Virus record (IMG/VR): IMGVR_UViG_3300031857_000254
Span: 1 to 53,562 of that record
DNA from: a virus
Taxonomy: Duplodnaviria > Caudoviricetes
DNA: 53,562 nucleotides
Reading direction: 5' to 3' (one strand)
Both the position numbers and the translations under genes were made by a program. Of this stretch, positions 18,596-52,686 are shown piece after piece. The notes under the pieces were generated by a model that was given only the letters and a program-made list of their open reading frames with translations, searched no databases and was not told the origin of the DNA. How positions within the stretch are numbered: the first letter of the stretch is position 1; every line of letters starts with the position of its first letter.

Positions 18596-18606
18596 TTACT
18601 TTCTCC

Positions 18607-20727: not shown

Positions 20728-20744
20728 TTATTTTCTCCGGTTAC

Positions 20745-23947: not shown

Positions 23948-24003
23948 TCCCCATATCCATCAAACAGGCGCGTCAACACCCAGTCGATTAAGCATTTAAT
24001 CAC
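23935..24003 (-). CDS. Tiny 22-aa ORF
   Basis: MIKCLIDWVLTRLFDGYGDWEQ; bridges two genes by overlaps. Confidence 0.35.
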   Translation of the reverse strand: MIKCLIDWVLTRLFDGYGDWEQ

Positions 24004-24786: not shown

Positions 24787-24839
24787 ATCATTCTCCGGTT
24801 GTTTTTATCAATCTCGCACATTCATCACTGTAATTCAAC

Positions 24840-25007
24840 TCAGAAATTACGGCGACGACGCTCTTCTTTCAACAGTCTTTCAGCAGTATCCAAGCTGATA
24901 CCAAACGCCGCAGAAACTTGATGCGGACGCTTGCCCAGAAGCGTAGTGTCCGGCCAATCGCGGATGATCTGGAAGGCTAATTCAGTGCCTTCGTGTTTAT
25001 TCTTCAT
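24840..25007 (-). CDS. Small HTH-like protein
   Basis: PHQVSAAFGISLDTAERLL; ATGA-coupled to primase stop. Confidence 0.55.
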   Translation of the reverse strand: MKNKHEGTELAFQIIRDWPDTTLLGKRPHQVSAAFGISLDTAERLLKEERRRRNF

Positions 25008-27418
25008 TCCCATAGTCCTACTGGCCACTCCTGTTTAGGTAGATAAATCGCTCGTGAAGTCGCGCCCCCGAAGCGAACACTCTCGGTGCTCTTCTTGGCG
25101 TATGGGTGGCGCAGCAAGACACCAGCCCAGCCCTCGAAATAGACAGACGTTTGCATGATCCGGTTCATCGGCTGGATGCTCTGGCCTATCCATACTCCTA
25201 CGACATTCCCATATTCACGTTCGATCTTCATTCCATAACGGGAAAGCGTGGACTCTGCCACTTTCAACCGAACGTCCGTCGTGTCATCGCGGGTAAAGCA
25301 AACTATCAGCAGCTCGCCAATCGTCCGCTCCTGTGCGCCGTGAACAGTCTCAACGCGGATCATGCTCCCCACGATGTGATGCAGCAGCGATATGTCCTCG
25401 CGCTCCGACTTCACCTGCAGGAACTCATCTAGGTTCACCGTGTTCAGGTATTTCTCGCACTGCTTCATGTCCAAACGCTTCGTGCTATACAGGCTATAGC
25501 AGCCAGCCATCAGCGTCCCCAGCTGGTCGCCAATGCGTCGGTTCGCCAGCACAGTAGCAATCGTTTCCTTGAATATCTCCACGTTGTGACGCAGCGTAAA
25601 TATGTTATGCAACTGCCGTGCCAACAGGCGCTGCGGCATATCCTGCGGTATCTCCGATGCAAGGCTCAGGAAGTCCTTGAACTCCTGCTCCTTCTTCTTC
25701 CGCTCGTCATGGCTGTAACTGTCCAGCGGCTTGATCGTCAGCACTGCCGTTCTCGTAAGGTCAGCTGCTTCCTTCAGGCCAACACCAATCGATGACATCA
25801 GGAACGACGACCGCATCGTAAACGCCTGTGCGCTATGGTTCGCCGACCCCTTCAGAATGCGGCCACGCCCCTCGCTCGAAGCCTGCCGCATCAGATCCAG
25901 AACCGCCTTGCGCCGCGCCTCGGCCTGCATCTTCTGCTTATCGTCAGCCTCGCTCTCATCGAACACCACTGGCATAGCATCATTACGCACCACCTGACGG
26001 ATGCCAGCCTCGGTCGTTGCCCCTAATGGATAGATAGCCAAGTCCCCAAGGCACGCGCCCGCAATCTCATTGACCACTGTCGATTTACCCGAACCCTGAT
26101 TGCCTGTAACCCAAGCGTGCGTCCGCCACTGCAGACCACCGCAAACTACCGCCGTCGCAATCCAGCCAGCCAATAGGTCGCCATAGATCGGCGCATCCCA
26201 GCGCACCTTGTTGCACAGCTCACGGATCATGCGGCCATCGTCATCGCTGGCCCGTGTGTTATAGTCGTCCACATCCAAGATCAGGTCGGCGTTCTTCTCG
26301 TAAATCCAGCGGCTCTTGAACCGAACAAACGGAATCTCCCGTGTCGCACCACCAGACCGACTGACCACCAGCTTACTGCCCGTGTTCATCACTGCCCGCT
26401 CGACGTTATCGTCAGCCTTATCAATCCAGATGCCGCGCCCACGCAGGCGCTTCGGATCATAGACGCCAAGCTCATGGCAACGATCCATGATAGTAATCCC
26501 AGACTGTATCCAGTCCACGCCCTTGCCGTCCGGCTTGCCTTGCTGGCCGCCCCAGTAGGTCGGGTCGCCATAGATATTCATGCAGCCCTTCTGGCTCATC
26601 AGGCGGTCGGGATCGAACACATCCACCTGCTCCCGTTGCTGCGTCATCAGCATATATTTCATGTGATCATAGCCCAGCGGTCGCCACTCACGCTCCGCAT
26701 CCTCGTCGTAGTCAATGACCTTCTTCTCTTTCACAGGCTCCGGCGCGTCCGGTGTAGCCACAGCAGCACGCTTCAGCTCCCGCCGCAGCAGGCCCGTGAT
26801 ATTCTCCGGCTTTACCTTCGCTGGCAGCTCGTCGCCCAAGTCCCAGCCATCAGGAAACGCAGGGCTCAGCCCCACAATCGAAACCGGAACAGCGTGACGC
26901 GCCAGAATAGCCTGTATCTCCATCGCAGCCTGCGCCCCAGCGCCATCATTATCCGGCCAGACAACAACACTGTGACCCTCAAGCACAGCCCAGCTACTCT
27001 GATCCACAGCGTTCGCGCCACCCTGCCACGTCGCAACAACCCAACCCTCAGGCAGATACTGCTGCGCTGCATCCGCAGCCTTCTCACCCTCGACAATCAG
27101 CACAGGCGAGTTCGGCGCGGACGCAATCATGTCGCTGTTATACAACGGACGGCCAGTCCCAAACCCAGAGGTCAGAAACTTCTTTCCGTCCCAAACAATC
27201 GGTCGGATTTCTTTGCGCTTCCCTTCAGGGTTCCAGCGTGCCACCGCACCAAAGGCAGAGCCATCAGCAAGGCGGTATATCCACATCGAGTCCGGCTCAC
27301 CGCCCAGTGCAGCCTTCAACTTCGCAGGAACCTCAATCGGCTCTGGCATGGGTGTGACTATGCTCGGTGTGTCCGTTATGTCCTCGGCCTTAACCGCCGT
27401 CAGGTCTATCTTACGCAT
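25004..27418 (-). CDS. TOPRIM primase fused to a P-loop helicase
   Basis: VEGEKAAD, WPDND, GWDLGD TOPRIM motifs; GNQGSGKS Walker A; FDESE Walker B. Confidence 0.88.
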   Translation of the reverse strand: MRKIDLTAVKAEDITDTPSIVTPMPEPIEVPAKLKAALGGEPDSMWIYRLADGSAFGAVARWNPEGKRKEIRPIVWDGKKFLTSGFGTGRPLYNSDMIASAPNSPVLIVEGEKAADAAQQYLPEGWVVATWQGGANAVDQSSWAVLEGHSVVVWPDNDGAGAQAAMEIQAILARHAVPVSIVGLSPAFPDGWDLGDELPAKVKPENITGLLRRELKRAAVATPDAPEPVKEKKVIDYDEDAEREWRPLGYDHMKYMLMTQQREQVDVFDPDRLMSQKGCMNIYGDPTYWGGQQGKPDGKGVDWIQSGITIMDRCHELGVYDPKRLRGRGIWIDKADDNVERAVMNTGSKLVVSRSGGATREIPFVRFKSRWIYEKNADLILDVDDYNTRASDDDGRMIRELCNKVRWDAPIYGDLLAGWIATAVVCGGLQWRTHAWVTGNQGSGKSTVVNEIAGACLGDLAIYPLGATTEAGIRQVVRNDAMPVVFDESEADDKQKMQAEARRKAVLDLMRQASSEGRGRILKGSANHSAQAFTMRSSFLMSSIGVGLKEAADLTRTAVLTIKPLDSYSHDERKKKEQEFKDFLSLASEIPQDMPQRLLARQLHNIFTLRHNVEIFKETIATVLANRRIGDQLGTLMAGCYSLYSTKRLDMKQCEKYLNTVNLDEFLQVKSEREDISLLHHIVGSMIRVETVHGAQERTIGELLIVCFTRDDTTDVRLKVAESTLSRYGMKIEREYGNVVGVWIGQSIQPMNRIMQTSVYFEGWAGVLLRHPYAKKSTESVRFGGATSRAIYLPKQEWPVGLWE

Positions 27419-27803
27419 GGTTCATGCCCAGCATATCTGCGAATCCTTTTAATGTTTCATGCAGGCTATCCCCGAATAGCCTCATAGACAGGTCGATCAT
27501 GTCGCCATGTTCCCCAGTCGCAAAATCTTTCCAACGCCCCGTGCTAAGCGAAACGCCCAGCGAAGCACTGCGATCCTCGCGCCACGGAGTGCGGCAGACA
27601 AACCACCCACCCTGCCGCTTGCCATCCGGCAGCCAAGCCTTGCACAGTGCCTCGATGTGTGTGGAACTCAAGCGATCCTTGATGTCGCTTATAGATATTG
27701 ACCGGAGATTGACGGCCTTGCCAGCGGCGGGGAAAGGAGGCCGCTCGCTGGAAGCTATGTGGTTTTTAGGCAAGCCTTGGACATTGCCACATTTTCCGGT
27801 CAT
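27411..27803 (-). CDS. Stand-alone primase zinc-binding-domain-like protein
   Basis: PWREDRSASLGVSLSTGRWKDFATGEHGDMIDL resembles CHC2/DnaG N-terminal domain with ligands degenerate. Confidence 0.7.
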   Translation of the reverse strand: MTGKCGNVQGLPKNHIASSERPPFPAAGKAVNLRSISISDIKDRLSSTHIEALCKAWLPDGKRQGGWFVCRTPWREDRSASLGVSLSTGRWKDFATGEHGDMIDLSMRLFGDSLHETLKGFADMLGMNHA

Positions 27804-27807
27804 GTTG

Positions 27808-27836
27808 TTAATACCTTTCTAAAATCGCGCCGTCAA
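27808..27836 (-). promoter_or_regulatory. Putative sigma70 promoter for the replication operon
   Basis: Minus strand TTGACG-17-TATTAA. Confidence 0.6.
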
Positions 27837-27882
27837 ACGCACAAACACTAATGCTTGCATACGGAACCGAAACTTACAAGCC

Positions 27883-28212
27883 TTAACTCTCGCTGTCGTA
27901 AACGCCTCCGACAAAACTATATCGGTGGAAGCGTATCGGAATAGCCTCGGTGCGATACACCTTTCCCGCTGCATCCTTCCATTTCCCATGCTTGTCCAGC
28001 CGGATACGGAACGTCAGTGCTTGCGGGTCAGGTGCTATCGTCCAGTCCTGCTCTTCCTCATTCGTGCAATGGCCCATGATCATGGCCGGACGCCAACCTT
28101 TCTTCAGGTCAGCCGCCATCTCCCGAATCACAAGCTCGTGCCCGCTTATCACCTCGACCACCTCGAAGGGAAGAGTCCCCTTCTCCTCATAGCGGTTCGC
28201 ATAGCCCAGCAT
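27883..28212 (-). CDS. Hypothetical protein
   Basis: 109 aa; PFEVVEVIS..IREM..EQDW..IRL. Confidence 0.7.
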   Translation of the reverse strand: MLGYANRYEEKGTLPFEVVEVISGHELVIREMAADLKKGWRPAMIMGHCTNEEEQDWTIAPDPQALTFRIRLDKHGKWKDAAGKVYRTEAIPIRFHRYSFVGGVYDSES

Positions 28213-28406
28213 TACGCAGCGTCGCCCAGCCTCGCACGCACAGCCTGCCTCAACATTAGCGCCGTGAAGCCCCAGACCTTAGTCGCCAAGCTATACGCCT
28301 TCACCAGCTCCTTGATCTCACCATCAATCTCTTGCAGCCTACGCGCCGCCCTATCACGTTCACTAAAGGCATCGCGTGCCTTCAGTATAACTTCGGTATC
28401 AGTCAT
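28212..28406 (-). CDS. Hypothetical protein
   Basis: 64 aa helical, coupled. Confidence 0.65.
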   Translation of the reverse strand: MTDTEVILKARDAFSERDRAARRLQEIDGEIKELVKAYSLATKVWGFTALMLRQAVRARLGDAA

Positions 28407-28684
28407 CCCACAATCTCCAAAATCTCCGGCTTGTCCGTGCAGTCCGCGACCACCTCGTCAGCGTCATTGCCGTAGACCAGATAAATAGAACCAATCCGCT
28501 TGCGGTCAGCGTTCGCCACCTGCAGCCACTCTTCGTCGCAGTGCCCCAGCTCGACCATCACCGCTTCAGGGTCATCGCTGTGCATGATAGGATATTCCTC
28601 GCCGTCAAACACCGACAACAAATAGCCCTTGTCCAGAGCGCGCCCCACTATCTGTTTCACCACGAATCGTTCTTCCGTGTTCAT
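28403..28684 (-). CDS. Hypothetical protein
   Basis: 93 aa; GY..SVFDGEE..LVYGND..VVADC; GAGG RBS. Confidence 0.7.
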   Translation of the reverse strand: MNTEERFVVKQIVGRALDKGYLLSVFDGEEYPIMHSDDPEAVMVELGHCDEEWLQVANADRKRIGSIYLVYGNDADEVVADCTDKPEILEIVG

Positions 28685-28869
28685 CTCTTCCTCCTCGGCT
28701 CTCTGCGGCCATACTCAACCAGCGTGTCAAACGCCGTGTAATAGTCATCCCATAAAGACGGGTCGATATACGGGCTGTCATCCCCATTAACGTGTTCATC
28801 AATCGAATTGACAAGCAAATCCAGCACATCGAGCAGCTCACCTGCGTCTGCTGCGTCTAGCTCTCTCAT
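28681..28869 (-). CDS. Hypothetical protein
   Basis: 62 aa acidic; GAGG RBS; coupled. Confidence 0.6.
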   Translation of the reverse strand: MRELDAADAGELLDVLDLLVNSIDEHVNGDDSPYIDPSLWDDYYTAFDTLVEYGRREPRRKR

Positions 28870-29129
28870 GGCTGCACCTCGCTTGATGAGGATTTATTCT
28901 TGCGCGATGAGGATTTATTCTTGCTACCAGCCGGACGGCCCATGTTCGCCTTATTGCGCGGCTTCTTATCCTTGCTGCCAAGCGGACGGCCAACCTTCTT
29001 CTTCGGGGTAAATAATTTCTCCTCCTTGGCCTCGATCATCACAACTTCCAATGACATTATAAAAACCGCATCCCAGTCCAGACGAACAGCCCAATCAAAA
29101 AACTTCTCTGCTAACCATTTACGCATCAT
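28866..29129 (-). CDS. Small protein with two AT-hook-like motifs
   Basis: GRPLGSKDKKPR and GRPAGSKNK. Confidence 0.65.
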   Translation of the reverse strand: MMRKWLAEKFFDWAVRLDWDAVFIMSLEVVMIEAKEEKLFTPKKKVGRPLGSKDKKPRNKANMGRPAGSKNKSSSRKNKSSSSEVQP

Positions 29130-29277
29130 CCTTCTCCTCTTCCTCATCCACAATCTGCATTGCCCACAAAATCTCTTCCTTGCTAATCGCCTTCAGCAAT
29201 TCCTTCAGCTTCACCCGTGCGTCCAGCTCGTGACTAGCCATCACGGAAAAGCCCAGCGTGAAATCAAACTTCCTCAT
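29119..29277 (-). CDS. Hypothetical protein, 52 aa (not in ORF track)
   Basis: MRKFDFTLGFSVMASHELDARVKLKELL; GGAGG RBS. Confidence 0.6.
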   Translation of the reverse strand: MRKFDFTLGFSVMASHELDARVKLKELLKAISKEEILWAMQIVDEEEEKDDA

Positions 29278-29512
29278 CTGCTACCTCCACGCTCGTCACC
29301 ATGTCCTCAATGTCGCAGCCCAATTCCAGCGCCTCATCGCGGGTCAAATCCCGCTCGTCGTTCCATTCCAGCGTTGCCCAAGGCTTTACGAAATCCCCAT
29401 TGGGCAGAACCCAGCCGCGCCCACCTGCCATGTCCATCGACGCACTGTCATCCGGCAGGGTCAGCGTCACTTCCAGTGTCATATTCACAATCATATCAAT
29501 ATCCCTTCCCAT
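29264..29512 (-). CDS. Hypothetical protein
   Basis: 82 aa ORF in the early cluster. Confidence 0.6.
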   Translation of the reverse strand: MGRDIDMIVNMTLEVTLTLPDDSASMDMAGGRGWVLPNGDFVKPWATLEWNDERDLTRDEALELGCDIEDMVTSVEVADEEV

Positions 29513-29669
29513 TGCGGTATTCGATCACTGTCACCTCGCTGTCGCGCTCATCAGTCACAGTCCAAAGCCTATCGTCCTCCATGCTCAAAGACCGCGCCGC
29601 CCACATGGCGTGAATGCCATACTCGAACCGCGCAACTTCCTTGCAATCCACCTCCAGCCGCACGTTCAT
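29496..29669 (-). CDS. Hypothetical protein, 57 aa (not in ORF track)
   Basis: MNVRLEVDCKEVARFEYGIHA..YRNGKGY; GGAG RBS; ATGA overlap. Confidence 0.6.
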   Translation of the reverse strand: MNVRLEVDCKEVARFEYGIHAMWAARSLSMEDDRLWTVTDERDSEVTVIEYRNGKGY

Positions 29670-29926
29670 CCGTCTATCTCCTCCAGCAGCCGCGCAGCAT
29701 CAGCCACGAAGGTGTCCGTCACCCGACCAAACGCAGCATAATTCAGAACCATGCTTTGCAGTGCCGTCCGCATCGCGTCATAACGCTCCTGCATCGCCAA
29801 GATCGCGGTCAGGTTCGCTACGCTATCGTCATACAGCTTGCCTTCCGTGTTCACCGCATTGCCCATCAGCACGCAATCGCTGCTCTCCAGAAGCTCACGC
29901 ACTGTGCGGAATATATCGTCAGTCAT
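29666..29926 (-). CDS. Hypothetical protein
   Basis: 86 aa from ATG 29926. Confidence 0.6.
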   Translation of the reverse strand: MTDDIFRTVRELLESSDCVLMGNAVNTEGKLYDDSVANLTAILAMQERYDAMRTALQSMVLNYAAFGRVTDTFVADAARLLEEIDG

Positions 29927-30224
29927 CGTCCCGATCCTTCCCCGCCAAGCTATCCGAAGCCATCTGCCCAGCTTCAAACAACTGCTCCAGCGTTGCCGCA
30001 TGGCACTGGTTCAGCGCATCCGCAGCCACCTCTACAAATTCACAGGCGTAAAAGTCCTCGCCAGCTTCTCTGGCCGCCTCGCGCCGCCGAATCGCCTCCT
30101 CTGCTACCGATATGCACAGCTCCGCCATCTCATCGGTGTAGCGTTCATCATAATACAGCGCGTCCGTCCCTGCATCGGCAGCAAAAATCGCCGCATATCT
30201 CGCCAAATCCTTCGCTTCATTCAT
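29919..30224 (-). CDS. Hypothetical protein
   Basis: 101 aa from ATG 30224 with GGAG RBS. Confidence 0.6.
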   Translation of the reverse strand: MNEAKDLARYAAIFAADAGTDALYYDERYTDEMAELCISVAEEAIRRREAAREAGEDFYACEFVEVAADALNQCHAATLEQLFEAGQMASDSLAGKDRDDD

Positions 30225-30696
30225 CGTCCCACTCCTCAAACGCAAACGCGAAACAATCGCGCAGCTCTTCATCCTCGCACTCACCGATCATCATGGTCAC
30301 TTCAACGCCAGCGCCATAGCGCCCAATATAATCCATGCCCGTTTCGCAATACATCGCAGCCACAGACAAGCCCTGCTCCTCCTCGGCATAACGATACGCC
30401 TCAACAGGTGGCGACCATGCGCTGTCAAAGCGGAACGTCACGCTCTCGCCCTCGTCCTCAATGCCAACGTCACCAACCTCCCATTTCGTCCCCCAATGCT
30501 CAACGCTCCAGTCATACCAATTATTCGAGCCATGCTTCTCGCGCTCGGCACTGCCCACGTTCCCCCGAAAGACGCTATCCGGCATCGGGCGGATTGTGTT
30601 CAACAATTCCCGCTTGCCAGCGCCATCAATCAGCGCGTCTAGCTTCGCCCTCGGCCCCGTAAACGTCACCACATTTTCACACCAATTCGGCATCAT
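30217..30696 (-). CDS. YubB/DUF1281-like ferredoxin-fold protein
   Basis: MPNWCEN, WYDWSVEHWGTKW, FDSAWSPP, Y.E.G. Confidence 0.8.
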   Translation of the reverse strand: MMPNWCENVVTFTGPRAKLDALIDGAGKRELLNTIRPMPDSVFRGNVGSAEREKHGSNNWYDWSVEHWGTKWEVGDVGIEDEGESVTFRFDSAWSPPVEAYRYAEEEQGLSVAAMYCETGMDYIGRYGAGVEVTMMIGECEDEELRDCFAFAFEEWDDE

Positions 30697-30850
30697 TCTT
30701 CTCCTCGTAAATCATCTCTATCAGTTCAAACGCGCCGCTATCCTCGCCGCGAACCATCATAGCCAGCAATTCCAAGAGGCCATCCCGTGCCTCCTCCAAG
30801 CTATCCGCACCGATATATAAATCCGTGCTAAAAACGTATGTCGCAGCCAT
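30677..30850 (-). CDS. Hypothetical protein, 57 aa (not in ORF track)
   Basis: MAATYVFSTDLYIGADSLEEA; GGAGG RBS. Confidence 0.6.
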   Translation of the reverse strand: MAATYVFSTDLYIGADSLEEARDGLLELLAMMVRGEDSGAFELIEMIYEEKNDAELV

Positions 30851-31137
30851 CACGCATCCTCCTCTTCATCTTCATCCGCCTCTGGCCGATACGCATCGAT
30901 ATTCATCGACGCGATTTCATACCAATTCACCTGCGCTAGAAACGCCTCGGCATAATCCAAAGCAATCCCCGATGCCTCTGCGCCAACAGTCTCCATCGCC
31001 ATGTCGCGCAAGTTCTGCCCCAGATCGTAAGCGTCCATGTCATTGTCGCTGGAAAAATCAGCGTCGAACATCTCCAGATTAACGCGCCAAGTCTCGTAAT
31101 TCGTCCAGCCGTTATATGTCGTATCTTTATCCATCAT
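30850..31137 (-). CDS. DUF7249-like protein
   Basis: YNGWTNYETW..VNWYEIA. Confidence 0.75.
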   Translation of the reverse strand: MMDKDTTYNGWTNYETWRVNLEMFDADFSSDNDMDAYDLGQNLRDMAMETVGAEASGIALDYAEAFLAQVNWYEIASMNIDAYRPEADEDEEEDA

Positions 31138-31382
31138 GCCTCTCCCTTCGCGGCCTTAATCGCAGCCGATGCGATATACCGCATACCTATGGCCGAACCG
31201 CCATTGCCCTCGACCTCAACAATCCGCTCCAGAGCCGCCAGCATATCCGCGACAATCGCCCGTGCCTCTCCAAGCTCCGCCAGCGTATCGCGTATGGAAG
31301 CCCCCTCAGGAGCCTCCAACGCCATCACCGCATAGTGCAGCGCCCCAGACGCATCACGCAGGGCTTCGGTTACATTTACCAT
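31134..31382 (-). CDS. Hypothetical protein
   Basis: 82 aa from ATG 31382; MLAALERIV..AAIKAAKGE. Confidence 0.65.
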   Translation of the reverse strand: MVNVTEALRDASGALHYAVMALEAPEGASIRDTLAELGEARAIVADMLAALERIVEVEGNGGSAIGMRYIASAAIKAAKGEA

Positions 31383-31690
31383 CACGCCGCCTCCTTCGTA
31401 ACGTAACGCTTCACAACATCCCATGCCGATGCCACCTGCTCGGCAGGGAAATATTCCGGAAACGAAACAACCACACACTGCGCCGCGCAATCCTCCTCAA
31501 ACCATTGCGACGAACCAGACCAATAAGCCGCATAGTCTTTCATTTCTTTCGTGATACGGGGAAGCAATTCACGGGCAACCCAGATGCCGCCGTGCGATGC
31601 AGTCGAAACATAAATGATGCCCTCGGCAATGACCTCTTCGTCCTGCACGATGCCCCAAGGGGAAGATTTTCCATTCAACGTAAGCGTCAT
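31382..31690 (-). CDS. DUF7007-like protein
   Basis: SPWG, GIIYVSTASHGGIW, WFEEDC; AAGGA RBS. Confidence 0.75.
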   Translation of the reverse strand: MTLTLNGKSSPWGIVQDEEVIAEGIIYVSTASHGGIWVARELLPRITKEMKDYAAYWSGSSQWFEEDCAAQCVVVSFPEYFPAEQVASAWDVVKRYVTKEAA

Positions 31691-31814
31691 ATTAAATATC
31701 CTTTCTCATATCATCCGGCTGTCAACGTCACATTGCAACCTATCGCCAGCCATAGTTTATCCGATTTACATATGTCAACAGCAAAACGACAATTATCACA
31801 TCATCCTTTATATT

Positions 31815-32200
31815 TTCCAAAATGTCACGGATTTGCCCAAAAATGTCACGGAAAGCGTGACAAGCAAGTCGTTGTTTTTAAACGATAAAAATAGGGCCGA
31901 ATCGGACCTGTGACAAGTTTGTGACAAGCAAGTGCCTGTTATTGCAGGGGAATCCCAAAAATGTCACGGATTTCGGAAAAATACATCCCTATATATATCC
32001 CCCACCCCCTATCTCTCATAGGCCCTCTTTTTATTTTCAGGGGGTTGTATATATATAAATATCGTTACATTTATAAATATATATAAAAAAGGGCGGATTT
32101 CTGCGGTTTTTTCTGTCACATCGTCGTGACATTTTCGAAAAATCCGTGACAAACTGGCCTCAAACCCGCAGGAATCCTAGGGTTTTTTTGTGACATTGCC
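31815..32200. other. Putative replication origin: iterons around an AT-rich core
   Basis: 10 copies of TGTCAC/GTGACA in both orientations flanking TATATA tracts (about 31990-32090); GC skew appears to flip here. Confidence 0.75.
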
Positions 32201-45389: not shown

Positions 45390-45677
45390 ATGATTCTTCG
45401 TAGATACACAAACGCAAATGGTGACCAGCAGGAAATCAGCCTTTCTCAAGAAGATTGGGAAAAGGTGACTGAAGAGTCGCTTGAAATGATGCTCGGCTTT
45501 AAGGATGCGCCTGAACCTGCTGCTGAGGCCGCTGTCGTTGAGGAAGCTCCCGTCGTTGAAGAGGCTCCTGCCGCTGAAGAAGCGCCAGTTGTCGAAGAAG
45601 CCCCTGCTGCTGAAGAGGCCCCCGTCGCTGAAAAAGCGGCAGTTGTCGCAGAAGCGCCTGCCAAAAAGGGCAAATAA
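45390..45677 (+). CDS. Hypothetical protein with acidic hexapeptide repeat
   Basis: GGAG RBS; EEAPVV/EEAPAA tandem units. Confidence 0.75.
   Translation: MILRRYTNANGDQQEISLSQEDWEKVTEESLEMMLGFKDAPEPAAEAAVVEEAPVVEEAPAAEEAPVVEEAPAAEEAPVAEKAAVVAEAPAKKGK
45535..45660 (+). repeat. 18-bp coding tandem repeat
   Basis: About 7 degenerate units encoding EEAP(VV/AA). Confidence 0.75.
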
Positions 45678-46871: not shown

Positions 46872-47581
46872 TGGCAAATAAAAAAATCACAGACCTCACG
46901 GCGGCCACAACTCCACTCAGCGGCAACGAGCTGCTGGAAGTCGTGCAATCTGGCAGCAGTGCTAAGGCAACCGCTACATCGATTGCGAACACGTTCAGTA
47001 GCACACTGGGCGTCGCCAATGGCGGCACCGGGGCAACCACCCTCACGGGATATGTAAAGGGCAGCGGAACATCAGCAATGACGGCGGCTGCGACAATCCC
47101 TTATGCGGATGTGGCTGGCCGGGCTTACATTTCTGCGTATGATAGCACAGATCAAACTGGCAGCGTTTCGGCTGCCACTGCGATAAAACTTGCATCAACG
47201 TCTTTCAGCTCAGGCATAACCATTGCGAATAACGGAAGCGGAGATCCAACGCGGATTACATTTGCTGTCGCCGGCACATACGCAATAATGCCAAGCCTAC
47301 AGTTCGCCAACTCTGATGCAAATGATCACGAAGTTAATATCTGGTTCCGTAGAAACGGCACTGATATAGCTAACTCAAATACGGTAATCAGCGTTCCAAA
47401 GGCAGCTGATGGCGGTAATACATTCTTCCAGATTGCCCTGTACGAACAGGTGACTGCCGGCCAATACATTGAGGTTATGTGGCTGCCTGTGAACACGAGC
47501 GTCACGCTTGATTACATTGCCGCTGGGGCAATTGCTCCCGCAGCGCCCTCCGTCATTATCTCGTCTGAGCGAATCGCATAA
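46871..47581 (+). CDS. Fibre/appendage protein
   Basis: MANKKITDL N-terminal motif; VANGGTGA repeat; C-terminal beta-sandwich (AGTY..W.R.NG). Confidence 0.7.
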   Translation: MANKKITDLTAATTPLSGNELLEVVQSGSSAKATATSIANTFSSTLGVANGGTGATTLTGYVKGSGTSAMTAAATIPYADVAGRAYISAYDSTDQTGSVSAATAIKLASTSFSSGITIANNGSGDPTRITFAVAGTYAIMPSLQFANSDANDHEVNIWFRRNGTDIANSNTVISVPKAADGGNTFFQIALYEQVTAGQYIEVMWLPVNTSVTLDYIAAGAIAPAAPSVIISSERIA

Positions 47582-47943
47582 TGATTGAGCAGCTCATCTC
47601 TCGCGTATTTTACGCCCGCAACCTCGCTCACTTTGCGCACTGGCGCGCCAAGGGTGATGGTAGCTATGCCAAGCACAAGGCACTGGGGAAGTTTTACGAT
47701 GGCGTAATCGATGCGATTGATCCGTTGGTCGAGGCTTACCAAGGCGCATATGAGCTGATCGGCGCTATTCCAGTTCCCGGTGAAATGGAGAAGGATATTC
47801 TGAAGTGCCTTGAATCCGATGCTGCTTGGATTGAGGCCAACCATGAGAAGATCTGCAAGGGCAACCGAGCCGTTGCGAATCTGATTGACACGCTGACCGC
47901 CGTATATCTCTCTGCAATCTATAAGCTGCGGAACCTCAGATGA
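47581..47943 (+). CDS. Dps/ferritin-like four-helix protein (DUF5856-like)
   Basis: HFAHW..YAKHKAL..FYD..D.LVEAYQG..YKL. Confidence 0.75.
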   Translation: MIEQLISRVFYARNLAHFAHWRAKGDGSYAKHKALGKFYDGVIDAIDPLVEAYQGAYELIGAIPVPGEMEKDILKCLESDAAWIEANHEKICKGNRAVANLIDTLTAVYLSAIYKLRNLR

Positions 47944-48170
47944 TGGATACCGGCACCCTCTTTACCATTCTCGGCTTCGTCATCACCGCCTTGAGCTTTA
48001 TAGGGGCTTTGATAACCGTCTGGGTTAATCTTACCAATAAGCTGACGCTGCTTGAGGCGCGTCTCGGCTTTGGCGACGAGAAATTCAACGCCATCGATAA
48101 AAAGTTTGACGAGGTAATGATGCACCTCCGACGCATTGAGGATAAACTGGACAACAAGGCGGATCGGTGA
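47940..48170 (+). CDS. Small membrane protein with coiled coil (holin-like)
   Basis: One TM helix then RIEDKLDNKAD. Confidence 0.6.
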   Translation: MMDTGTLFTILGFVITALSFIGALITVWVNLTNKLTLLEARLGFGDEKFNAIDKKFDEVMMHLRRIEDKLDNKADR

Positions 48171-49195
48171 TGAATAAAAGGTATTGGGTTCTTGTGTCTC
48201 TCGGCTGGTGTAGCATGGCGCTTGCGCAGACCGCTCCGGTGTCTGTGGCCCCGACCGAATACGTCTACACCACGACAACAACCAGCACATCGGACAACAA
48301 CAATACGTCCACCAGCACGAATACGAACAACAACAACAACAATTCGACCAGCACATCGACGAACACGAATAACAATAACAGCACGTCTGCCAGCACGTCG
48401 GTAAACACCAATACGAACTTCAACACCAGCGAAAGCACTAGCACGTCGGTCAACACGAACAACAACGTGAATGCCAGCACGAGCACGTCGCTGAACACGA
48501 ACAACAATAACAACGTCAGTTCGTCAACCAACACCAACATAAATCAGAACACTGGGACGATGACCAACATCAACCAGAATACGAACATAAATTCTGGCAC
48601 GATGACGAACATTAACCAGAACACCAACGCCAGCACATCCGAAAATACGAACCGCAATTTTAATACGGATGTCAGCAACAGCACCGTAAATCAGACGGTC
48701 AACAGCACCGTCAACACGAACAACACGAACAACGACACCAGCACGATTAACCAAACGACAAGCAGCGATAACCGCAACGTTAATCAGAACAACAACGTCA
48801 ACGTCTCCGACAGCAAAAGCTACAGCGAGAGCGTTAATCGTCAGGTTATCGACCAGAATATTAAGTCGCCACCGCCCAGCGCCATCGCGCCGTCGATGAT
48901 GTCCTACAGCCAAGACCTTTGCACCACCGGCCAGTCTGGCGCAGTGCAGACGCAGATTATTGGCCTCTCGGCAGGCCGCACCGTGCGTGATCAGAACTGC
49001 GAGCGGATGAAGCTGTCGAAGACCCTGTACGACATGGGTATGCGCGTCGCCGCCGTGAGCCTCCTGTGCCAAGACCCCCGCGTATTCGGCGCGATGGAGA
49101 TGGCTGGCACGCCCTGCCCCTTCATGGGTTTGATTGGCGAGGAAGCCCGCGCCGCGTGGACCGAGAACGTCGAGCTTCGCCCTGTCGAGGACTAA
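48167..49195 (+). CDS. Secreted Asn/Thr/Ser-repeat protein with Cys-containing C-terminal domain
   Basis: Signal peptide ending ALA-Q; about 190 aa N/T/S repeats; PPPSAIAP..C..NCER..LCQD..GTPCP. Confidence 0.8.
   Translation: MMNKRYWVLVSLGWCSMALAQTAPVSVAPTEYVYTTTTTSTSDNNNTSTSTNTNNNNNNSTSTSTNTNNNNSTSASTSVNTNTNFNTSESTSTSVNTNNNVNASTSTSLNTNNNNNVSSSTNTNINQNTGTMTNINQNTNINSGTMTNINQNTNASTSENTNRNFNTDVSNSTVNQTVNSTVNTNNTNNDTSTINQTTSSDNRNVNQNNNVNVSDSKSYSESVNRQVIDQNIKSPPPSAIAPSMMSYSQDLCTTGQSGAVQTQIIGLSAGRTVRDQNCERMKLSKTLYDMGMRVAAVSLLCQDPRVFGAMEMAGTPCPFMGLIGEEARAAWTENVELRPVED
48268..48830 (+). repeat. Low-complexity coding repeat (aac/acg/agc codons)
   Basis: STSTNTNNNN-like units; duplicated GTMTNINQNTN. 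Confidence 0.85.
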
Positions 49196-50858
49196 GACAT
49201 ACGTCTTGCAGGCGGCTCTCCTGCTGACTTGCGCGACGCCTCTGTGTGCGCAGACCTATGAGCCTGCCTTAATCCCCCCGCAAATAAACGGCGCGCCCAC
49301 CACAATGACGCCTCTCAATCTGGGCGATGACGGCACGCGGAACGTATCTCTTGGCTTTGAGTTTGAATACTGGGGCCAGACGTTCACCAATGCGTGGGTG
49401 TCGTCCAATGGCTTTGTGTCGTTCCAGAGTGGCGCGCATCTGTGCTGCAACGGCCAGCCCATAGAACTGGCGCAGCGCAACACAATATACGCCTATTGGT
49501 CTGACCTGATTAGCTACACCGGTAATCCATATTATCGCCGCGATGATGGCTCGATCCTCTTCGGCTGGTACGGCGTGAACGAGTACGGCACGAACAACAG
49601 CAGCACCTTCGAGATCGGCCTCTTTGCTGACGGCAAGATACAACTGAACTTCGGCAGTCTGGGTTTCTCCGGTCGGCGTGACTTTACCGCAGGCATCACC
49701 GGCCCAACTGCGGATGACAACATACCGCTTTTCTACGGTCGCAACGCGCAGTTCCTACAGAACCAGTCTGGCATCCTGTCGTGGATTGCGCCGGAACCGG
49801 ATGTCGTGGCAATCGACTGCAACGCAACGCCCATGCACCCAAGCTGCCCACCAGCATCAATAGCCATTGATGTCGGCGCACCTGACCCAACTGAGAGTGC
49901 GCTCGAAGCTGCCGTGGCTTCCGTCGAGCAGGCGGCGATGGAAGAAACGCAGCAAGAAGTGCTGGTTGAAGATATTGCTGACATCGAACAGGTGCTTGAA
50001 ACCGCGCAAGAGGCATTGGAAACAGCAGACACGTCTGTTGAAGCCGAAACGGACGAGCCTGTCGCGGACGAGGAGCCTGCCGGTGAGGACGCCCTTGAGG
50101 AATTGATTTCGGAGCGGGATTTAGAAGATACCGGCTCCAATGCAGAGCGACTGTCGCCGGACGAATTGGCGGCGCTGGCAGCGCAGGGCCCAGAGGATGC
50201 TACCGCTGACGAAACGGAAGCACTGGCGCCATTGGAGCTGGATGGCACAGAGAACGCCGTAGGGGGCCAAGACGCATCGTCAGGCGCGTTGGAGCAGGAA
50301 GTATCCAATCAGCTTGCTACGGCGCTGGAAGAAAGCGGACAGGGTATGCAATCCGCATTCTTTGAAGAAGCAGCGGAAGTAAGCCAAGCATCGGCGTTTG
50401 AAAGCGGGTCGCAATCGTCGCAAAGTTTCGGCAGTTTTCAAATGCGCGTTGATTTCGGGTCAAGCACTTCGGTTAGCAGCGGGATTGGTTCTGGCGTCGG
50501 ATCATCACCACTGGACGCTGCTGTCTCGGCAAGCAGTCCCATGTCGATGTCCACCACATTCGAGATACTGAACAATGTCGGCGGTCAAAGCAGCGCAGCG
50601 CCCGTTACAGCAACCGCGTCATCTGAAAAATCAGAAAGCGAAATGGCAGAAGGTCAGAGCGAAACTATTTCTGAGATGGGGTCCGTACCGGGCTTCGCTG
50701 CGTACACTCAGGCGTCCTTGCAAGATAGGGCTGACTTTTACGCAATACGTGATATATACCGCAGACGTGTGCTGCAGGACGCAAACTTTGAATTGTATCG
50801 CATGATGCAGACGAACGATGCCCGTTGGCAGGAGATGGTAGATGAGCAGTACAGATGA
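49134..50858 (+). CDS. Secreted protein with nidogen (NIDO)-like domain and acidic tail (start uncertain)
   Basis: Signal-like AALLLTCATPLCA-Q; DD..VSLGFEFEYWGQTF..WVSSNGFVSF..IYAYWSDL..TFEIGL..G.I. Confidence 0.7.
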   Translation: MARKPAPRGPRTSSFALSRTKTYVLQAALLLTCATPLCAQTYEPALIPPQINGAPTTMTPLNLGDDGTRNVSLGFEFEYWGQTFTNAWVSSNGFVSFQSGAHLCCNGQPIELAQRNTIYAYWSDLISYTGNPYYRRDDGSILFGWYGVNEYGTNNSSTFEIGLFADGKIQLNFGSLGFSGRRDFTAGITGPTADDNIPLFYGRNAQFLQNQSGILSWIAPEPDVVAIDCNATPMHPSCPPASIAIDVGAPDPTESALEAAVASVEQAAMEETQQEVLVEDIADIEQVLETAQEALETADTSVEAETDEPVADEEPAGEDALEELISERDLEDTGSNAERLSPDELAALAAQGPEDATADETEALAPLELDGTENAVGGQDASSGALEQEVSNQLATALEESGQGMQSAFFEEAAEVSQASAFESGSQSSQSFGSFQMRVDFGSSTSVSSGIGSGVGSSPLDAAVSASSPMSMSTTFEILNNVGGQSSAAPVTATASSEKSESEMAEGQSETISEMGSVPGFAAYTQASLQDRADFYAIRDIYRRRVLQDANFELYRMMQTNDARWQEMVDEQYR

Positions 50859-51363
50859 GGAACCCAAGGTCTCTTTCGACGAGAGCGGCTTTAGCTTTAA
50901 CATTGGTGGTCTGAGCAGCGGCAAGATTGCTATCATCTTTGCTGCATTCTCAACAATCCTTGGTGGTCTATGGGCTGGCTTCCAAGTGTATCAGCAGTTC
51001 TTGACCATGCAGGAAGTTACGGCTGCGTATGTGCCGCCAGACCTTTCTGGTATTGAAGGTCGCATTTCTGTGCTTGACGAGCGCGTCACGAGTGTAGAGC
51101 GCCTGACTAAGATTAACAGCGAAGCTCTAAACTACATGACTGGTTCAATCTCTAGCAGTGTCAGCGGCACGCGACAGACGGTTGACGCGGTGTCAAGTAG
51201 CGTTAGAAACAGCGATGCACAGAATATGGCAATGCAGCGAGCCATCATAGATCAGCTGCGCGAGCAGGATAAGGAACAGCAGCGCCGGATCAAGGAACTG
51301 GAGACTGAAACTACTGCACGTATTCAAAAGACGCTGGCGAACCCGCTGGCCGGAAAGGAATGA
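50842..51363 (+). CDS. Membrane-anchored coiled-coil protein
   Basis: TM IAIIFAAFSTILGGLWAGF; long heptad region; ends LANPLAG. Confidence 0.75.
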   Translation: MSSTDEEPKVSFDESGFSFNIGGLSSGKIAIIFAAFSTILGGLWAGFQVYQQFLTMQEVTAAYVPPDLSGIEGRISVLDERVTSVERLTKINSEALNYMTGSISSSVSGTRQTVDAVSSSVRNSDAQNMAMQRAIIDQLREQDKEQQRRIKELETETTARIQKTLANPLAGKE

Positions 51364-51869
51364 ACATGGAAGATAAACTAATGGATGCCCGCATCAAGGC
51401 GCTCCTTATGGCTGCGCGCACGATGGCGTTTGTCATCTGCACGATCACCATCGCCATGATTGCCGGCCTATTCGTATCGAACGAGATCATCGACAACAAG
51501 GATGTCTTCGGCCTCCTTAGCTACGTAATGACCTCCGTCGTCGGCGCTGTTGCTGGCTCCTACGCCACGCTGATGGGCATGAAGGGCGAACTGGTCCCGC
51601 CACCGCCAGAAGACCGCGATGATCCTGAGCCGGAGCCTGTGGCCCCTGTAGCGCCTGAACCAGACCCGCTACCCCTTACACCTGAAATGGTTGCGCCAAA
51701 AGCGTATGACGACCCGCAGGCCACTGTCTTTATCGACACACCTGAAGACGATGATGATGACGATATGGAGCCTTGGGAGAAGTACCGCAACGATATGCGT
51801 TATGACGCCAATGGCGACGGCGTTGTTGATGAACTTGATTTCCCTGATTGGCGGAGTGCTGGCAAATGA
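51360..51869 (+). CDS. Two-TM membrane protein with C-terminal EF-hand-like loop
   Basis: Two hydrophobic helices; Pro/acidic linker; DANGDGVVDELD. Confidence 0.75.
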   Translation: MNMEDKLMDARIKALLMAARTMAFVICTITIAMIAGLFVSNEIIDNKDVFGLLSYVMTSVVGAVAGSYATLMGMKGELVPPPPEDRDDPEPEPVAPVAPEPDPLPLTPEMVAPKAYDDPQATVFIDTPEDDDDDDMEPWEKYRNDMRYDANGDGVVDELDFPDWRSAGK

Positions 51870-52480
51870 GCATGATTGAACTTCAGAAGAAGATTGGGGT
51901 AACGGCAGATGGTGCGTTCGGTCCGGGTACACTTAAGGCGGCTGCGGCTTACTATAAACTATCACCTAATCGGGCTGCACATTTCTTTGCTCAGTGCGCG
52001 CATGAGTCGGGCAACTTCAAAGCGTTCAGCGAGAACCTCAACTACGGAGCCAAAGGGCTGCGCGGAATCTTTGGAAAGTATTTCCCGACTGACGCAATGG
52101 CCCGTGCCTACGAGCGTCAGCCAGCCAAGATCGCCAACCGTGTCTATGCCAACCGCATGGGCAATGGCGACGAAGCGTCAGGCGAAGGTTTCGCATACAA
52201 AGGCCGAGGCCCGCTCCAACTCACCGGGAAAAACAACTACCGCGCATTCGGCAAGTACATTGGTCGTGAACAGGAAATTTTGGACAATCCAGATCTCGTG
52301 GCTACTGAACTGGGCTTCGAAAGCGCCTTGTGGTTCTTTGACGCAAACAAGCTGTGGTCCATCTGCGATCAGGGCATCAACGACGCTGCGATCCTCGCAC
52401 TGACGAAGCGGATCAACGGGGGCACACATGGCCTTGATGACCGCAAACAGAAAACCAAGAAATATGCTGCTTGGTTGTAA
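51866..52480 (+). CDS. Endolysin, glycoside hydrolase family 19 with N-terminal peptidoglycan-binding motif
   Basis: LQ..G..ADG.FG.GT; AHFFAQCAHESG; YKGRGPLQLTGKNNY; TKRINGG..GLDDR. Confidence 0.93.
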   Translation: MSMIELQKKIGVTADGAFGPGTLKAAAAYYKLSPNRAAHFFAQCAHESGNFKAFSENLNYGAKGLRGIFGKYFPTDAMARAYERQPAKIANRVYANRMGNGDEASGEGFAYKGRGPLQLTGKNNYRAFGKYIGREQEILDNPDLVATELGFESALWFFDANKLWSICDQGINDAAILALTKRINGGTHGLDDRKQKTKKYAAWL

Positions 52481-52485
52481 GGAGA

Positions 52486-52686
52486 ATGACTATGGTTAAT
52501 CTGAAGAAACTTATCCGTAAGGAGGCCGAGAAGGCAATCGTCAACAAAACTGTTGGCAAAATCCTGCCTATGGAAGATGCTCCAAAACTGACGCTGATGG
52601 CTAAATTGATGAACGCCAAGGGTAAGCTGGCAGTCGCAATTGCTGCTATTACAGCTTTGATTGCAGCCGTCACTGAATTGATGTAA
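52486..52686 (+). CDS. Small membrane protein (lysis-associated)
   Basis: AAGGAG RBS; basic N-terminus, C-terminal hydrophobic helix. Confidence 0.6.
   Translation: MTMVNLKKLIRKEAEKAIVNKTVGKILPMEDAPKLTLMAKLMNAKGKLAVAIAAITALIAAVTELM

What the first reader, a model, noticed from the sequence alone, without database searches (positions are those of the whole stretch)
48167..51869. Four-gene secreted/membrane module inside the lysis region
Seen: four overlapping, coupled genes between a holin-like gene and the endolysin: a signal-peptide N/T-repeat protein with four C-terminal Cys, a signal-peptide NIDO-like protein with an acidic stalk, a TM coiled-coil protein and a two-TM protein with an EF-hand-like loop. 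Established: exported proteins are not normal virion parts, and canonical spanins include a lipoprotein; I see no clear lipobox pair. Inference: an uncharacterised envelope-spanning complex, such as an alternative outer-membrane disruption device, a superinfection barrier or a surface adhesin on infected cells.
Basis: partly seen in the sequence, partly recalled or inferred. Interest (0 to 1): 0.72.

Follow-up and report, generated by a model that had tools for sequence, protein, structure and literature searches.

The report
Conserved exported gene module in phage lysis cassette
Next to the cell-wall-degrading enzyme of this freshwater phage lies a set of exported and membrane proteins of unknown function that recurs in the same gene order in many water-dwelling phages, including phages of the abundant ocean bacterium SAR11, and matches no described protein family.

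Summary
Four translationally coupled genes (48167-51869) lie between a one-TM gene and a GH19 endolysin in a 98%-complete phage genome.

- **g1:** Sec-type signal peptide, N/T-rich linker and a 4-Cys C-terminal domain.
- **g2:** signal peptide, NIDO-like domain, acidic stalk and a conserved ~70-aa C-terminal domain.
- **g3:** one TM, a coiled coil and an invariant C-terminal NPL.
- **g4:** two TM segments and an EF-hand loop that is probably cytoplasmic.

All four are under strong purifying selection (dN/dS 0.02-0.26) and are colinear in 80 IMG/VR relatives wherever the contig reaches.

The trio g1-g2-g3 is much wider. The g1 domain has 1244 clusters at 50% identity. It occurs in cultured Pelagibacter, Roseobacter and Ralstonia phages (13 phage records). 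In eight examined, a g2-like gene follows it in five and a g3-like gene in six. Holins, endolysins and, in some relatives, canonical Rz/Rz1 spanins sit beside the trio.

No Pfam, NCBIfam or PADLOC family matches, and the only PHROG match is a family of unknown function. The g1 domain has no PDB fold match.

It is therefore not a canonical spanin, and probably not a simple substitute for one. My best reading (about 0.4) is an uncharacterised envelope complex accessory to lysis. A complex prediction gave no verdict, and the function is unproven.

The parts
47940..48170 (+). tm76: 76-aa protein with one N-terminal TM segment (res 7-25) and a charged helical tail. It is a holin-like candidate. Its stop overlaps the g1 start.
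   Evidence: It has only weak hits to PHROGs of unknown function. tblastn finds it in 61 of 80 close relatives.
48167..49195 (+). g1: a secreted protein. It has a signal peptide (res 1-21, ALA|Q), a low-complexity N/T/S linker and a conserved 4-Cys C-terminal domain.
   Evidence: phrog_20531 (unknown function), E 8e-15. No Pfam family.
48839..49192 (+). g1 C-terminal 4-Cys domain (res 225-342). The model shows a beta-hairpin plus four helices.
   Evidence: 1244 clusters at 50% identity. 3450 clusters at 90%. AF2 pLDDT 81.9. No PDB match: Foldseek best E 1.5 and VIA best Z 2.6. A PDB sequence profile finds nothing at E<=1.
49134..50858 (+). g2: a secreted protein, TTG start. The signal peptide is cleaved before QTYEP (inferred). 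It has a NIDO-like domain, an acidic stalk and a conserved C-terminal domain.
   Evidence: No Pfam or PHROG family. 97 IMG/VR relatives.
49251..49883 (+). g2 NIDO-like N-terminal domain (res 40-250).
   Evidence: Atlas lead to PF06119. Pfam gives nothing at E<=5. The domain is shared by 50 of 51 g2-like proteins. The AF2 model is poor, pLDDT 61.
49884..50570 (+). g2 acidic low-complexity stalk (about res 251-479).
   Evidence: Its length and sequence vary most among relatives: whole-protein identity is 55-93% while the N-domain is 76-94% identical.
50571..50855 (+). g2 conserved C-terminal domain, with aromatic positions F57, Y60, Y72 and Y78 of alignment A4.
   Evidence: All 51 g2-like C-termini fall in one BLAST cluster.
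50842..51363 (+). g3: a bitopic membrane protein with a TM segment at res 29-47, a coiled coil and an invariant C-terminal NPL.
   Evidence: dN/dS 0.02-0.04. Not related to co-resident Rz-like i-spanins (hhalign probability 6.7%).
51360..51869 (+). g4: a two-TM protein (res 21-39, 49-67) with a proline-rich, acidic tail.
   Evidence: 2982 clusters at 90% identity, one of them named 'EF-hand domain-containing' by UniRef. No holin family hit.
51804..51839 (+). EF-hand-type 12-residue loop DANGDGVVDELD in the g4 tail.
   Evidence: Seen in the sequence and conserved in relatives. Pfam gives Dockerin_1 at E 0.02, below cut-off. One of the 70 scanned neighbour proteins of marine relatives matches EF-hand_5 at E 7.5e-7. 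I take it to be one of the L159/L167 two-TM proteins, from their loop sequence.
51866..52480 (+). GH19 endolysin. The ORF opens at TTG 51848, and the likely start is ATG 51866, overlapping the g4 stop.
   Evidence: PF00182 E 6e-11. phrog_181 E 3e-60.
52471..52686 (+). p71: 71-aa protein with a C-terminal TM segment (res 53-71). It overlaps the end of the endolysin gene.
   Evidence: No family found.

Best explanation
g1, g2 and g3 are a co-inherited three-gene module of the late lysis cassette of a very large group of aquatic tailed phages.

- **g1 and g2** are exported by Sec into the periplasm. This is inferred from their signal peptides.
- **g3** sits in the inner membrane.
- **g4** is a two-TM, holin-like protein. 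Its EF-hand tail most likely faces the cytoplasm, inferred from the positive-inside rule.

I propose that the three conserved ends act together: the g1 4-Cys domain, the g2 C-terminal domain and the g3 NPL end. They would form an inner-membrane-anchored periplasmic assembly. The long flexible linkers and the NIDO-like domain would reach the wall or outer membrane. The assembly would act at lysis as an accessory to holin, endolysin and (where present) spanin. It would either help the last envelope layers give way or set the timing.

**Shown:** gene reality, coupling, strict co-occurrence, neighbourhood in lysis cassettes, and absence of any known family.

**Inferred:** export, topology, complex formation and any role in lysis.
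For: **One unit of expression.** The genes run in one translationally coupled string from tm76 to p71, with no promoter-like or terminator-like excess.

**Colinear in close relatives.** In 80 IMG/VR relatives, g1 was found in 73, g3 in 75, g4 in 75 and the endolysin in 72. All are colinear, and every miss is at a contig end.

**Trio conserved more widely.** 46 further IMG/VR loci have at least 3.5 kb downstream of the g1-like gene. In 44 of them the next gene is an acidic ORF of at least 400 aa. In all 46 an ORF ending in NPL lies within the next four ORFs.

**Same order in cultured phages of different morphotypes.** These are HTVC115P, HTVC023P, HTVC202P, Mosig, CRP-810 and CRP-207.

**Lysis genes beside the trio.** Among the neighbour ORFs of 22 marine loci, Phage_lysozyme occurs in 7. 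There is one hit each to M15_3, M15_2 and GH19. Holin-like two-TM proteins and Rz-like spanins also occur.

**Selection.** dN/dS is 0.02-0.26. g3 (0.02-0.04) is more constrained than the endolysin (0.07-0.12).

**No other candidates in this genome.** tm76, g3, g4 and p71 are the only small membrane proteins of a size to act in lysis in this 98%-complete genome. My scan also flagged two ORFs of about 40 aa near 33.3-33.9 kb, which I did not examine. Apart from g1 and g2, I noted no other signal-peptide ORF; I ran no dedicated signal-peptide scan of the whole window.
Against: No experiment or fold match ties any of the four proteins to lysis.

The topology of g3 is ambiguous. Over 49 g3-like proteins, K+R counts are 72 on the N-side of the TM segment and 82 on the C-side. 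The coiled coil could therefore be cytoplasmic.

Neighbourhood in a late operon also fits other late functions. In some relatives the trio lies next to structural or replication genes instead: terminase in HTVC202P and primase in Mosig.

Only 8 to 10 of the 22 examined marine loci show a muralytic enzyme within the ten-ORF neighbourhood.
Confidence: 0.4

Rival explanations
1. A non-canonical spanin. g3 would be the inner-membrane arm. g1 and g2 would replace the lipoprotein arm and link to the outer membrane by protein or glycan binding instead of a lipid anchor. After the wall is degraded, the complex would disrupt the outer membrane.
For: g3 has the i-spanin layout of an N-terminal TM segment plus a coiled coil. 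The window genome is 98% complete and has no lipobox ORF and no other i-spanin-like gene. The module sits directly before the endolysin.
Against: The same trio coexists with an Rz-like i-spanin candidate in 6 of 22 marine loci. L112 is PHROG-confirmed for both arms (phrog_739 E 2e-7, phrog_812 E 4e-12). L125 is confirmed for the i-spanin arm. The g3 profile is unrelated to those i-spanins (hhalign probability 6.7%). The g3 topology is unresolved. The linkers of g1 and g2 are far longer than a periplasm is wide (my estimate from residue counts).
Confidence: 0.15
2. A protective module: superinfection exclusion, or masking of envelope components. Periplasmic g1 and g2, held by g3, would block entry of a second phage. 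Alternatively they would coat debris after lysis so that progeny are not lost on it.
For: Exported phage proteins with binding-type domains are typical of exclusion systems (general knowledge, recalled). g2 carries an adhesion-type domain: NIDO-like here and CBM_4_9-like in HTVC202P (E 3e-4, below cut-off).
Against: PADLOC has no hit, though that library targets host defence systems. The genes are translationally coupled to late lysis genes rather than placed among early genes. The g1 domain is up to 62% identical between phages of very different hosts. That is unexpected for a host-receptor-specific function.
Confidence: 0.2
3. A function outside the cell after or during release: an adhesin or aggregation factor of infected cells. 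This would be analogous in idea to the curli (T8SS) cassette described in pelagiphages.
For: There is precedent that pelagiphages carry multi-gene exported cassettes shared between podo- and myoviruses (PMC9599517, abstract and passages read). This trio is likewise present in both podovirus and myovirus pelagiphages. The linkers are long, with adhesion-type domains.
Against: There is no outer-membrane pore or secretin gene in the module. There are no hits to Csg families or any secretion family. An inner-membrane partner (g3) would have no obvious role.
Confidence: 0.1

Closest known systems
Two-component spanins (lambda Rz/Rz1 type)
   Same: Located in the lysis cassette. One partner (g3) has an N-terminal TM segment and a coiled coil. 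The partners are exported to the periplasm. The genes overlap and are coupled.
   Different: There is no lipoprotein partner and no sequence relation to Rz-like families. There are two large secreted partners instead of one small lipoprotein. The trio coexists with canonical Rz/Rz1 pairs in some relatives.
TonB / TolA-type envelope-spanning proteins
   Same: The layout is a membrane anchor plus a long low-complexity spacer plus a conserved C-terminal domain. One g2-like protein is annotated 'transport protein tonB' in a GenBank record.
   Different: Anchor and spacer are on different polypeptides. No TonB or TolA family was reported among the Pfam hits at E<=0.1 for the whole proteins. There are no ExbBD/TolQR-like partners. 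The GenBank name probably reflects the low-complexity spacer only (my inference).
Pelagiphage curli (T8SS) cassette (PMC9599517)
   Same: A multi-gene exported-protein cassette of marine phages, found in both podo- and myoviruses of SAR11.
   Different: No CsgG, CsgF, curlin or FecR family appears among the Pfam hits reported at E<=0.1, so the gene families are different. The present trio sits in lysis cassettes and is not described in the passages I read of that paper.
Class II (two-TM) holins
   Same: g4 is small and has two TM segments. Positive residues on the N-side, and after TM2, suggest an N-in/C-in topology. It is encoded immediately before the endolysin.
   Different: There is no hit to any holin family. 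The tail is strongly acidic and carries an EF-hand-type loop, whereas holin tails are usually basic (recalled). My literature search found no holin with an EF-hand (listing only).

Membership tests
Two-component spanin (Rz/Rz1) | i-spanin: an inner-membrane protein with an N-terminal TM segment and a periplasmic coiled-coil domain | tested here: inconclusive
   g3 has the TM segment and the coiled coil. Its orientation cannot be decided from charge counts (72 against 82 K+R).
Two-component spanin (Rz/Rz1) | o-spanin: a small outer-membrane lipoprotein with a lipobox, encoded within, overlapping or next to the i-spanin gene | tested here: not met
   No credible lipobox ORF in any frame of the window by my heuristic scan. 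g1 and g2 have signal-peptidase-I type sites, and relatives of g2 have no Cys in the signal peptide.
Two-component spanin (Rz/Rz1) | Sequence membership in a known spanin family | tested here: not met
   No PHROG or Pfam spanin hit for g1-g4. The g3 profile against co-resident Rz-like i-spanins gives hhalign probability 6.7%.
Unimolecular spanin (T1 gp11 type) | One protein with an N-terminal lipoprotein signal and a C-terminal TM segment | tested here: not met
   p71 has a C-terminal TM segment but no signal or lipobox. None of g1-g4 has both features.
Holin (class II) | A small protein with two TM segments, required to release the endolysin, and belonging to a holin family | tested here: inconclusive
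   Two TM segments are present. There is no holin family hit. Function cannot be tested with these tools.
EF-hand | A 12-residue Ca-binding loop (D-x-[DNS]-x-[DNS]-G-x-[ILV]-x-x-x-[DE], recalled consensus) recognised by a family model | tested here: inconclusive
   The loop DANGDGVVDELD fits the recalled consensus. Pfam on the tail gives only Dockerin_1 at E 0.02, below cut-off. One marine neighbour protein matches EF-hand_5 at E 7.5e-7. UniRef names an 85%-identical cluster 'EF-hand domain-containing'.
NIDO domain (PF06119) | A match to the Pfam model at its gathering score | tested here: not met
   No Pfam family at E<=5 for res 40-250. The Atlas feature search does point to clusters with PF06119 in 12-14% of members. 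So it is 'NIDO-like' as a lead, not a member by the Pfam test.
Curli T8SS (CsgG/CsgF/CsgA) | Matches to the Csg families | tested here: not met
   No such Pfam or NCBIfam hits for g1-g4.

The most novel reading that the evidence does not exclude
The trio is a new functional class of phage lysis protein. It would be an inner-membrane-anchored periplasmic assembly whose long uncharged (g1) and polyanionic (g2) tethers are held by the intact wall. Once the endolysin has cut the wall, the tethers would push or pull the outer layers apart. It would be paired with a holin-like protein (g4) whose cytoplasmic EF-hand lets Ca2+ influx through the first membrane lesions speed up or gate triggering. If so, some of the most abundant phages of the ocean and of lakes would lyse their hosts with machinery that has not been described.
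Probability: 0.15. Interest if true: 0.85.

Novelty: categorically new. Interest (0 to 1): 0.68.

Why it matters
How phages of the dominant aquatic bacteria open the cell envelope is largely unknown, and their genomes are mostly 'hypothetical proteins'.

This module is one of the most widespread unannotated gene sets in them:
- 1244 clusters at 50% identity for the g1 domain;
- presence in HTVC023P-type pelagiphages. [quoted passage not shown]

The module is under stronger constraint than the endolysin beside it. It has no known fold for its best-conserved domain.

Working out its role would fill a gap in the lysis pathway, or reveal another late envelope function, of phages that drive bacterial mortality in oceans and lakes. 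It would also name several thousand database proteins. The EF-hand on a holin-like protein offers a directly testable link between Ca2+ and the timing of lysis.

Tried and rejected
**Complex prediction.** I submitted the g1 domain, g3 without its TM segment, and the g2 C-terminal domain. The score was 0.00 in two runs and the verdict was 'no answer', so it is evidence neither way.

**g1 domain fold.** Foldseek against the PDB had best E 1.5. VIA-align against 48,161 chains had best Z 2.6. No fold match.

**g2 N-domain.** The best AF2 model had pLDDT 61 and the other four 32-37, too poor to use. Foldseek on it found nothing at E<=0.001.

**PDB sequence profiles.**
- g1: nothing.
- g2 C-terminal domain: only chance-level rows (best E 0.12).
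- g2 N-domain: only a chance-level row (E 0.37).
- g3: only generic coiled coils, including its top row 8qox_B (E 3e-6), which aligns over a heptad-like repeat.

**Family libraries.** NCBIfam gave only low-complexity noise far below cut-offs, and PADLOC gave nothing.

**DNA search.** A search of GenBank phages with the region hit only the endolysin. g2 had no tblastn match among 50,697 phage records.

**Internal paralogy.** No part of the module resembles the phage's own tail or fibre genes.

**Bacterial genomes.** All 48 loci found are in MAG or SAG records with scattered taxonomic labels, and none is in an isolate genome. This gives no prophage and no host assignment.

**Rejected idea: variable g2 N-domain.** I first thought the g2 N-domain varies freely between lineages. 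That is wrong for the main clade, where 50 of 51 share the NIDO-like domain. Only some cultured pelagiphages differ.

**Rejected idea: general lipoprotein partner.** A small lipoprotein ORF directly after the g3-like gene looked like a general o-spanin-like partner. It is present in only a few marine loci.

**Literature.** Searches for pelagiphage+spanin, holin+EF-hand+bacteriophage, 'NIDO domain'+phage and HTVC023P turned up no description of this module in listings or in the passages I read. Table S3 of PMC12753301 (temporal classes of HTVC027P genes) could bear on expression timing.

Full report
**The observation**

The window is a 53,562-base virus record rated 98% complete. It carries terminase, portal, helicase and primase genes.

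From 47581 to 52686 the + strand carries an unbroken string of overlapping genes:
- a DUF5856 gene
- tm76 (47940-48170)
- g1 (48167-49195)
- g2 (49134-50858)
- g3 (50842-51363)
- g4 (51360-51869)
- a GH19 endolysin (ORF from 51848, likely ATG at 51866)
- p71 (52471-52686)

The endolysin call is firm: PF00182 at E 6e-11 and phrog_181 at E 3e-60. A consensus scan found no excess of promoter-like sites (3 against 6.5 expected). It also found no excess of terminator-like sites (13 against 9.3 expected). Together with the overlaps, this suggests one late transcription unit.

**The four proteins**

*g1.*
- It starts with K/R, a hydrophobic stretch and ALA|Q.
- A linker follows that is made almost only of N, T and S.
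- It ends in about 118 residues holding four Cys.

*g2.*
- It has a long n-region and ...PLCA|QTYEP. Many relatives have a textbook signal peptide at this point (MLTAALTQNKRLISLLAALLVSTSAAA|QTYEP) with no Cys. It is therefore a secreted protein, not a lipoprotein.
- After a 210-residue beta-rich domain comes a stalk with 10-15 acidic and 0-2 basic residues per 40 aa.
- It ends in a conserved aromatic-rich C-terminal domain of about 70 residues.

*g3.*
- It has one hydrophobic segment (res 29-47).
- The rest scores only against generic coiled coils.
- Its last residues contain an NPL that is invariant in 45 aligned homologues.

*g4.*
- It has two hydrophobic segments, then a proline-rich and acidic tail.
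- The tail holds the loop DANGDGVVDELD.
- Basic residues lie before TM1 and after TM2.
- In relatives with the domains in reverse order (CRP-207 gp72, L159, L167), the end after TM2 is KKK or KGKK.
- So the EF-hand part is most likely cytoplasmic. This is my inference from the positive-inside rule.

**Real genes**

Against seven relatives, dN/dS is as follows:

| Part | dN/dS |
|---|---|
| tm76 | 0.02-0.07 |
| g1 domain | 0.03-0.11 |
| g2 N-domain | 0.06-0.11 |
| g2 C-terminal domain | 0.10-0.26 |
| g3 | 0.02-0.04 |
| g4 | 0.04-0.17 |
| endolysin | 0.07-0.12 |

**Co-occurrence in close relatives**

A scan of IMG/VR with g2 found 97 relatives, of which 80 were kept. tblastn on those 80 loci found g1 in 73, g3 in 75, g4 in 75 and the endolysin in 72, always in the window's order. 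The misses are loci that begin or end inside the module. The flanks differ between these loci (the DUF5856 gene and the gene after p71), so the block is kept together while its surroundings change.

**A much wider trio**

The g1 C-terminal domain has:
- 3450 clusters at 90% identity within the searched length range;
- 1244 clusters at 50% identity at E<=0.001;

The ESM Atlas lists only viral clusters near it.

Among GenBank phages, tblastn finds the domain in 13 records. These include six Pelagibacter phages (podoviruses and the myovirus Mosig), two Roseobacter phages and Ralstonia phage RSP15, with up to 62% identity.

I examined eight of these records.
- **g2-like gene.** In five of them a long acidic g2-like gene follows the g1-like gene. 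These are HTVC115P, HTVC023P, HTVC202P, Mosig and the spring-water podovirus.
- **Shorter gene instead.** In CRP-810 and CRP-207 the next gene is shorter (187 and 261 aa) and not clearly g2-like.
- **g3-like gene.** Six have a short TM coiled-coil protein ending in NPL. These are HTVC115P, HTVC023P, HTVC202P, Mosig, CRP-810 and CRP-207.
- **Exceptions.** I saw no g3-like gene in the spring-water podovirus. RSP15 shows only the g1-like gene.

Of the second set of IMG/VR loci, 46 have at least 3.5 kb downstream of the g1-like gene.
- **g2-like gene.** 44 have an acidic ORF of at least 400 aa as the next gene. Of the two exceptions, one missed my acidity threshold by rounding and one has a 225-aa g2.
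- **g3-like gene.** All 46 have an NPL-ended ORF within four ORFs.

All 51 g2-like C-termini fall in one BLAST cluster, and 50 of 51 N-domains in another.

g4-like proteins (EF-hand loop plus two TM segments) recur in the close relatives and in L159, L167 and CRP-207, there with the domains in reverse order.

**Neighbourhood**

In 22 marine loci, the ORFs of at least 90 aa around the trio include:
- staphylococcal-nuclease homologues in 11;
- Phage_lysozyme in 7;
- one hit each to Peptidase_M15_3, Peptidase_M15_2 and GH19;
- a two-TM family (phrog_10198) in 8;
- a holin-like family (phrog_1544) in 4;
- an Rz-like i-spanin candidate in 6.

Of those six, L112 is confirmed by PHROGs for both arms (phrog_739 E 2e-7; lipoprotein phrog_812 E 4e-12). 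L125 is confirmed for the i-spanin arm, next to a phrog_689 holin.

In HTVC023P the g3-like gene is followed directly by the gene annotated peptidase M15. In a spring-water podovirus, a holin-like gene and a lysozyme follow the g1-like and g2-like genes, with one other gene in between.

The trio is thus a regular resident of lysis cassettes. But it sits beside canonical spanins, not only in place of them.

**What it is not**

- **Family libraries.** Pfam, NCBIfam and PADLOC give nothing for g1-g4. PHROGs gives only phrog_20531 (unknown function) for g1.
- **g1 domain.** The AF2 model (pLDDT 81.9: a beta-hairpin plus four helices) has no PDB counterpart. Foldseek best E is 1.5. VIA best Z is 2.6 over 48,161 chains.
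- **g3.** Its profile is unrelated to the co-resident Rz-like i-spanins (hhalign probability 6.7%).
- **Lipoproteins.** My heuristic scan found no credible lipobox ORF in the window. Besides tm76, g3, g4 and p71, the hydrophobicity scan flagged only two ORFs of about 40 aa near 33.3-33.9 kb, which I did not examine.
- **NIDO.** 'NIDO-like' is a lead, not a membership. The Pfam model does not match at E<=5. 20 of the 30 nearest named Atlas clusters carry PF06119 in 12-14% of members, score 0.90. The alignment shows what I recall as the characteristic motifs.
- **Curli.** The curli cassette described for pelagiphages is a different gene set (PMC9599517, abstract and passages; no Csg hits).

**How it most likely works**

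*Shown:* a strictly co-inherited set of two signal-peptide proteins and one membrane protein, coupled to lysis genes and strongly constrained.

*Inferred:* the conserved pieces are the three C-terminal ends, while the linkers vary freely in length. This is what one expects if the ends dock to each other and the linkers act as tethers or spacers. The C-terminal end type of g2 (QYR against QP.L) goes together with the g3 type (long against short) across lineages, while the g1 domain is uniformly conserved. That fits a g2-g3 contact, but equally fits shared descent.

I therefore favour an inner-membrane-anchored periplasmic assembly that serves the lysis step or its timing (0.4). The rivals are:
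- a true non-canonical spanin (0.15);
- a protective or exclusion role (0.2);
- an extracellular adhesion role (0.1).

The remainder is unknown.

The weakest links are the unresolved orientation of g3 and the lack of any interaction evidence. The one complex prediction gave no verdict and counts neither way.

**Host**

The host remains unknown. All 48 bacterial-genome loci are in MAG or SAG records with scattered labels. The closest (97% identity) is a 4-kb contig binned to a pond alphaproteobacterial MAG. One g4 cluster is named from an uncultured Caudovirales phage record.

**Novelty and verdict**

The genes are deposited only as hypothetical proteins, or in two roseophages mis-labelled 'lysozyme'. 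My searches found no paper describing the module (listings and passages only, supplements closed).

It matches no known kind of lysis, exclusion or secretion system by sequence or fold. It only resembles spanins and TonB/TolA in layout. I rate it categorically new in kind but of unproven function, with interest 0.68.

Noticed in passing
window 47581-47943: A DUF5856 / phrog_858 gene ('starvation-inducible transcriptional regulator', which I recall as Dps/ferritin-like) is translationally coupled to tm76 at the head of the lysis string. It is present in many, but not all, close relatives.
   Followed up: partly
window 45390-45677: A 95-aa ORF whose C-terminal half is made of acidic A/E/P/V repeats (AEEAPVVEEAP-like). 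It lies in the structural region and its function is unknown.
   Followed up: no
L111, L112, L117, L119, L125, L126, L147, L155, L161, L162, L163 (gene one or two ORFs upstream of the g1-like gene): A staphylococcal-nuclease homologue (PF00565) lies one or two ORFs upstream of the g1-like gene in 11 of 22 marine loci. In the one sequence I read there is no evident signal peptide.
   Followed up: partly
L111:5603-5806, L117:5437-5607, L131:4504-4707, L141:5395-5589, L166:9094-9270: A 56-67 aa ORF with a lipoprotein-type N-terminus directly follows the g3-like gene in a few marine loci. In L117 it lies ahead of a canonical Rz-like pair. It may be an extra lipoprotein partner in that sub-lineage.
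   Followed up: partly
L087:5162-5584 (CRP-810 gp51), L088:3292-3873 (CRP-207 gp73): These are annotated 'lysozyme' or 'putative lysozyme' in GenBank. By sequence they are g3-like TM coiled-coil proteins ending in NPL, so the annotation is probably wrong.
   Followed up: partly
L167:7663-8232 and L167:8232-8561: A protein with a GHSLGG motif lies immediately before an EF-hand two-TM gene in the same cassette. I infer it is the single Lipase_3 hit. A lipase in a lysis cassette recalls mycobacteriophage LysB (recalled).
   Followed up: no
window 18000-32000: GC skew turns negative over roughly 18-32 kb, where the helicase and primase genes lie on the minus strand. The genome thus has two divergent arms.
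   Followed up: no
L003:3965-4264: In the GenBank record of a spring-water podovirus the g1-like gene is not annotated; two short opposite-strand ORFs are annotated instead. The g2-like gene is named 'transport protein tonB'.
   Followed up: partly
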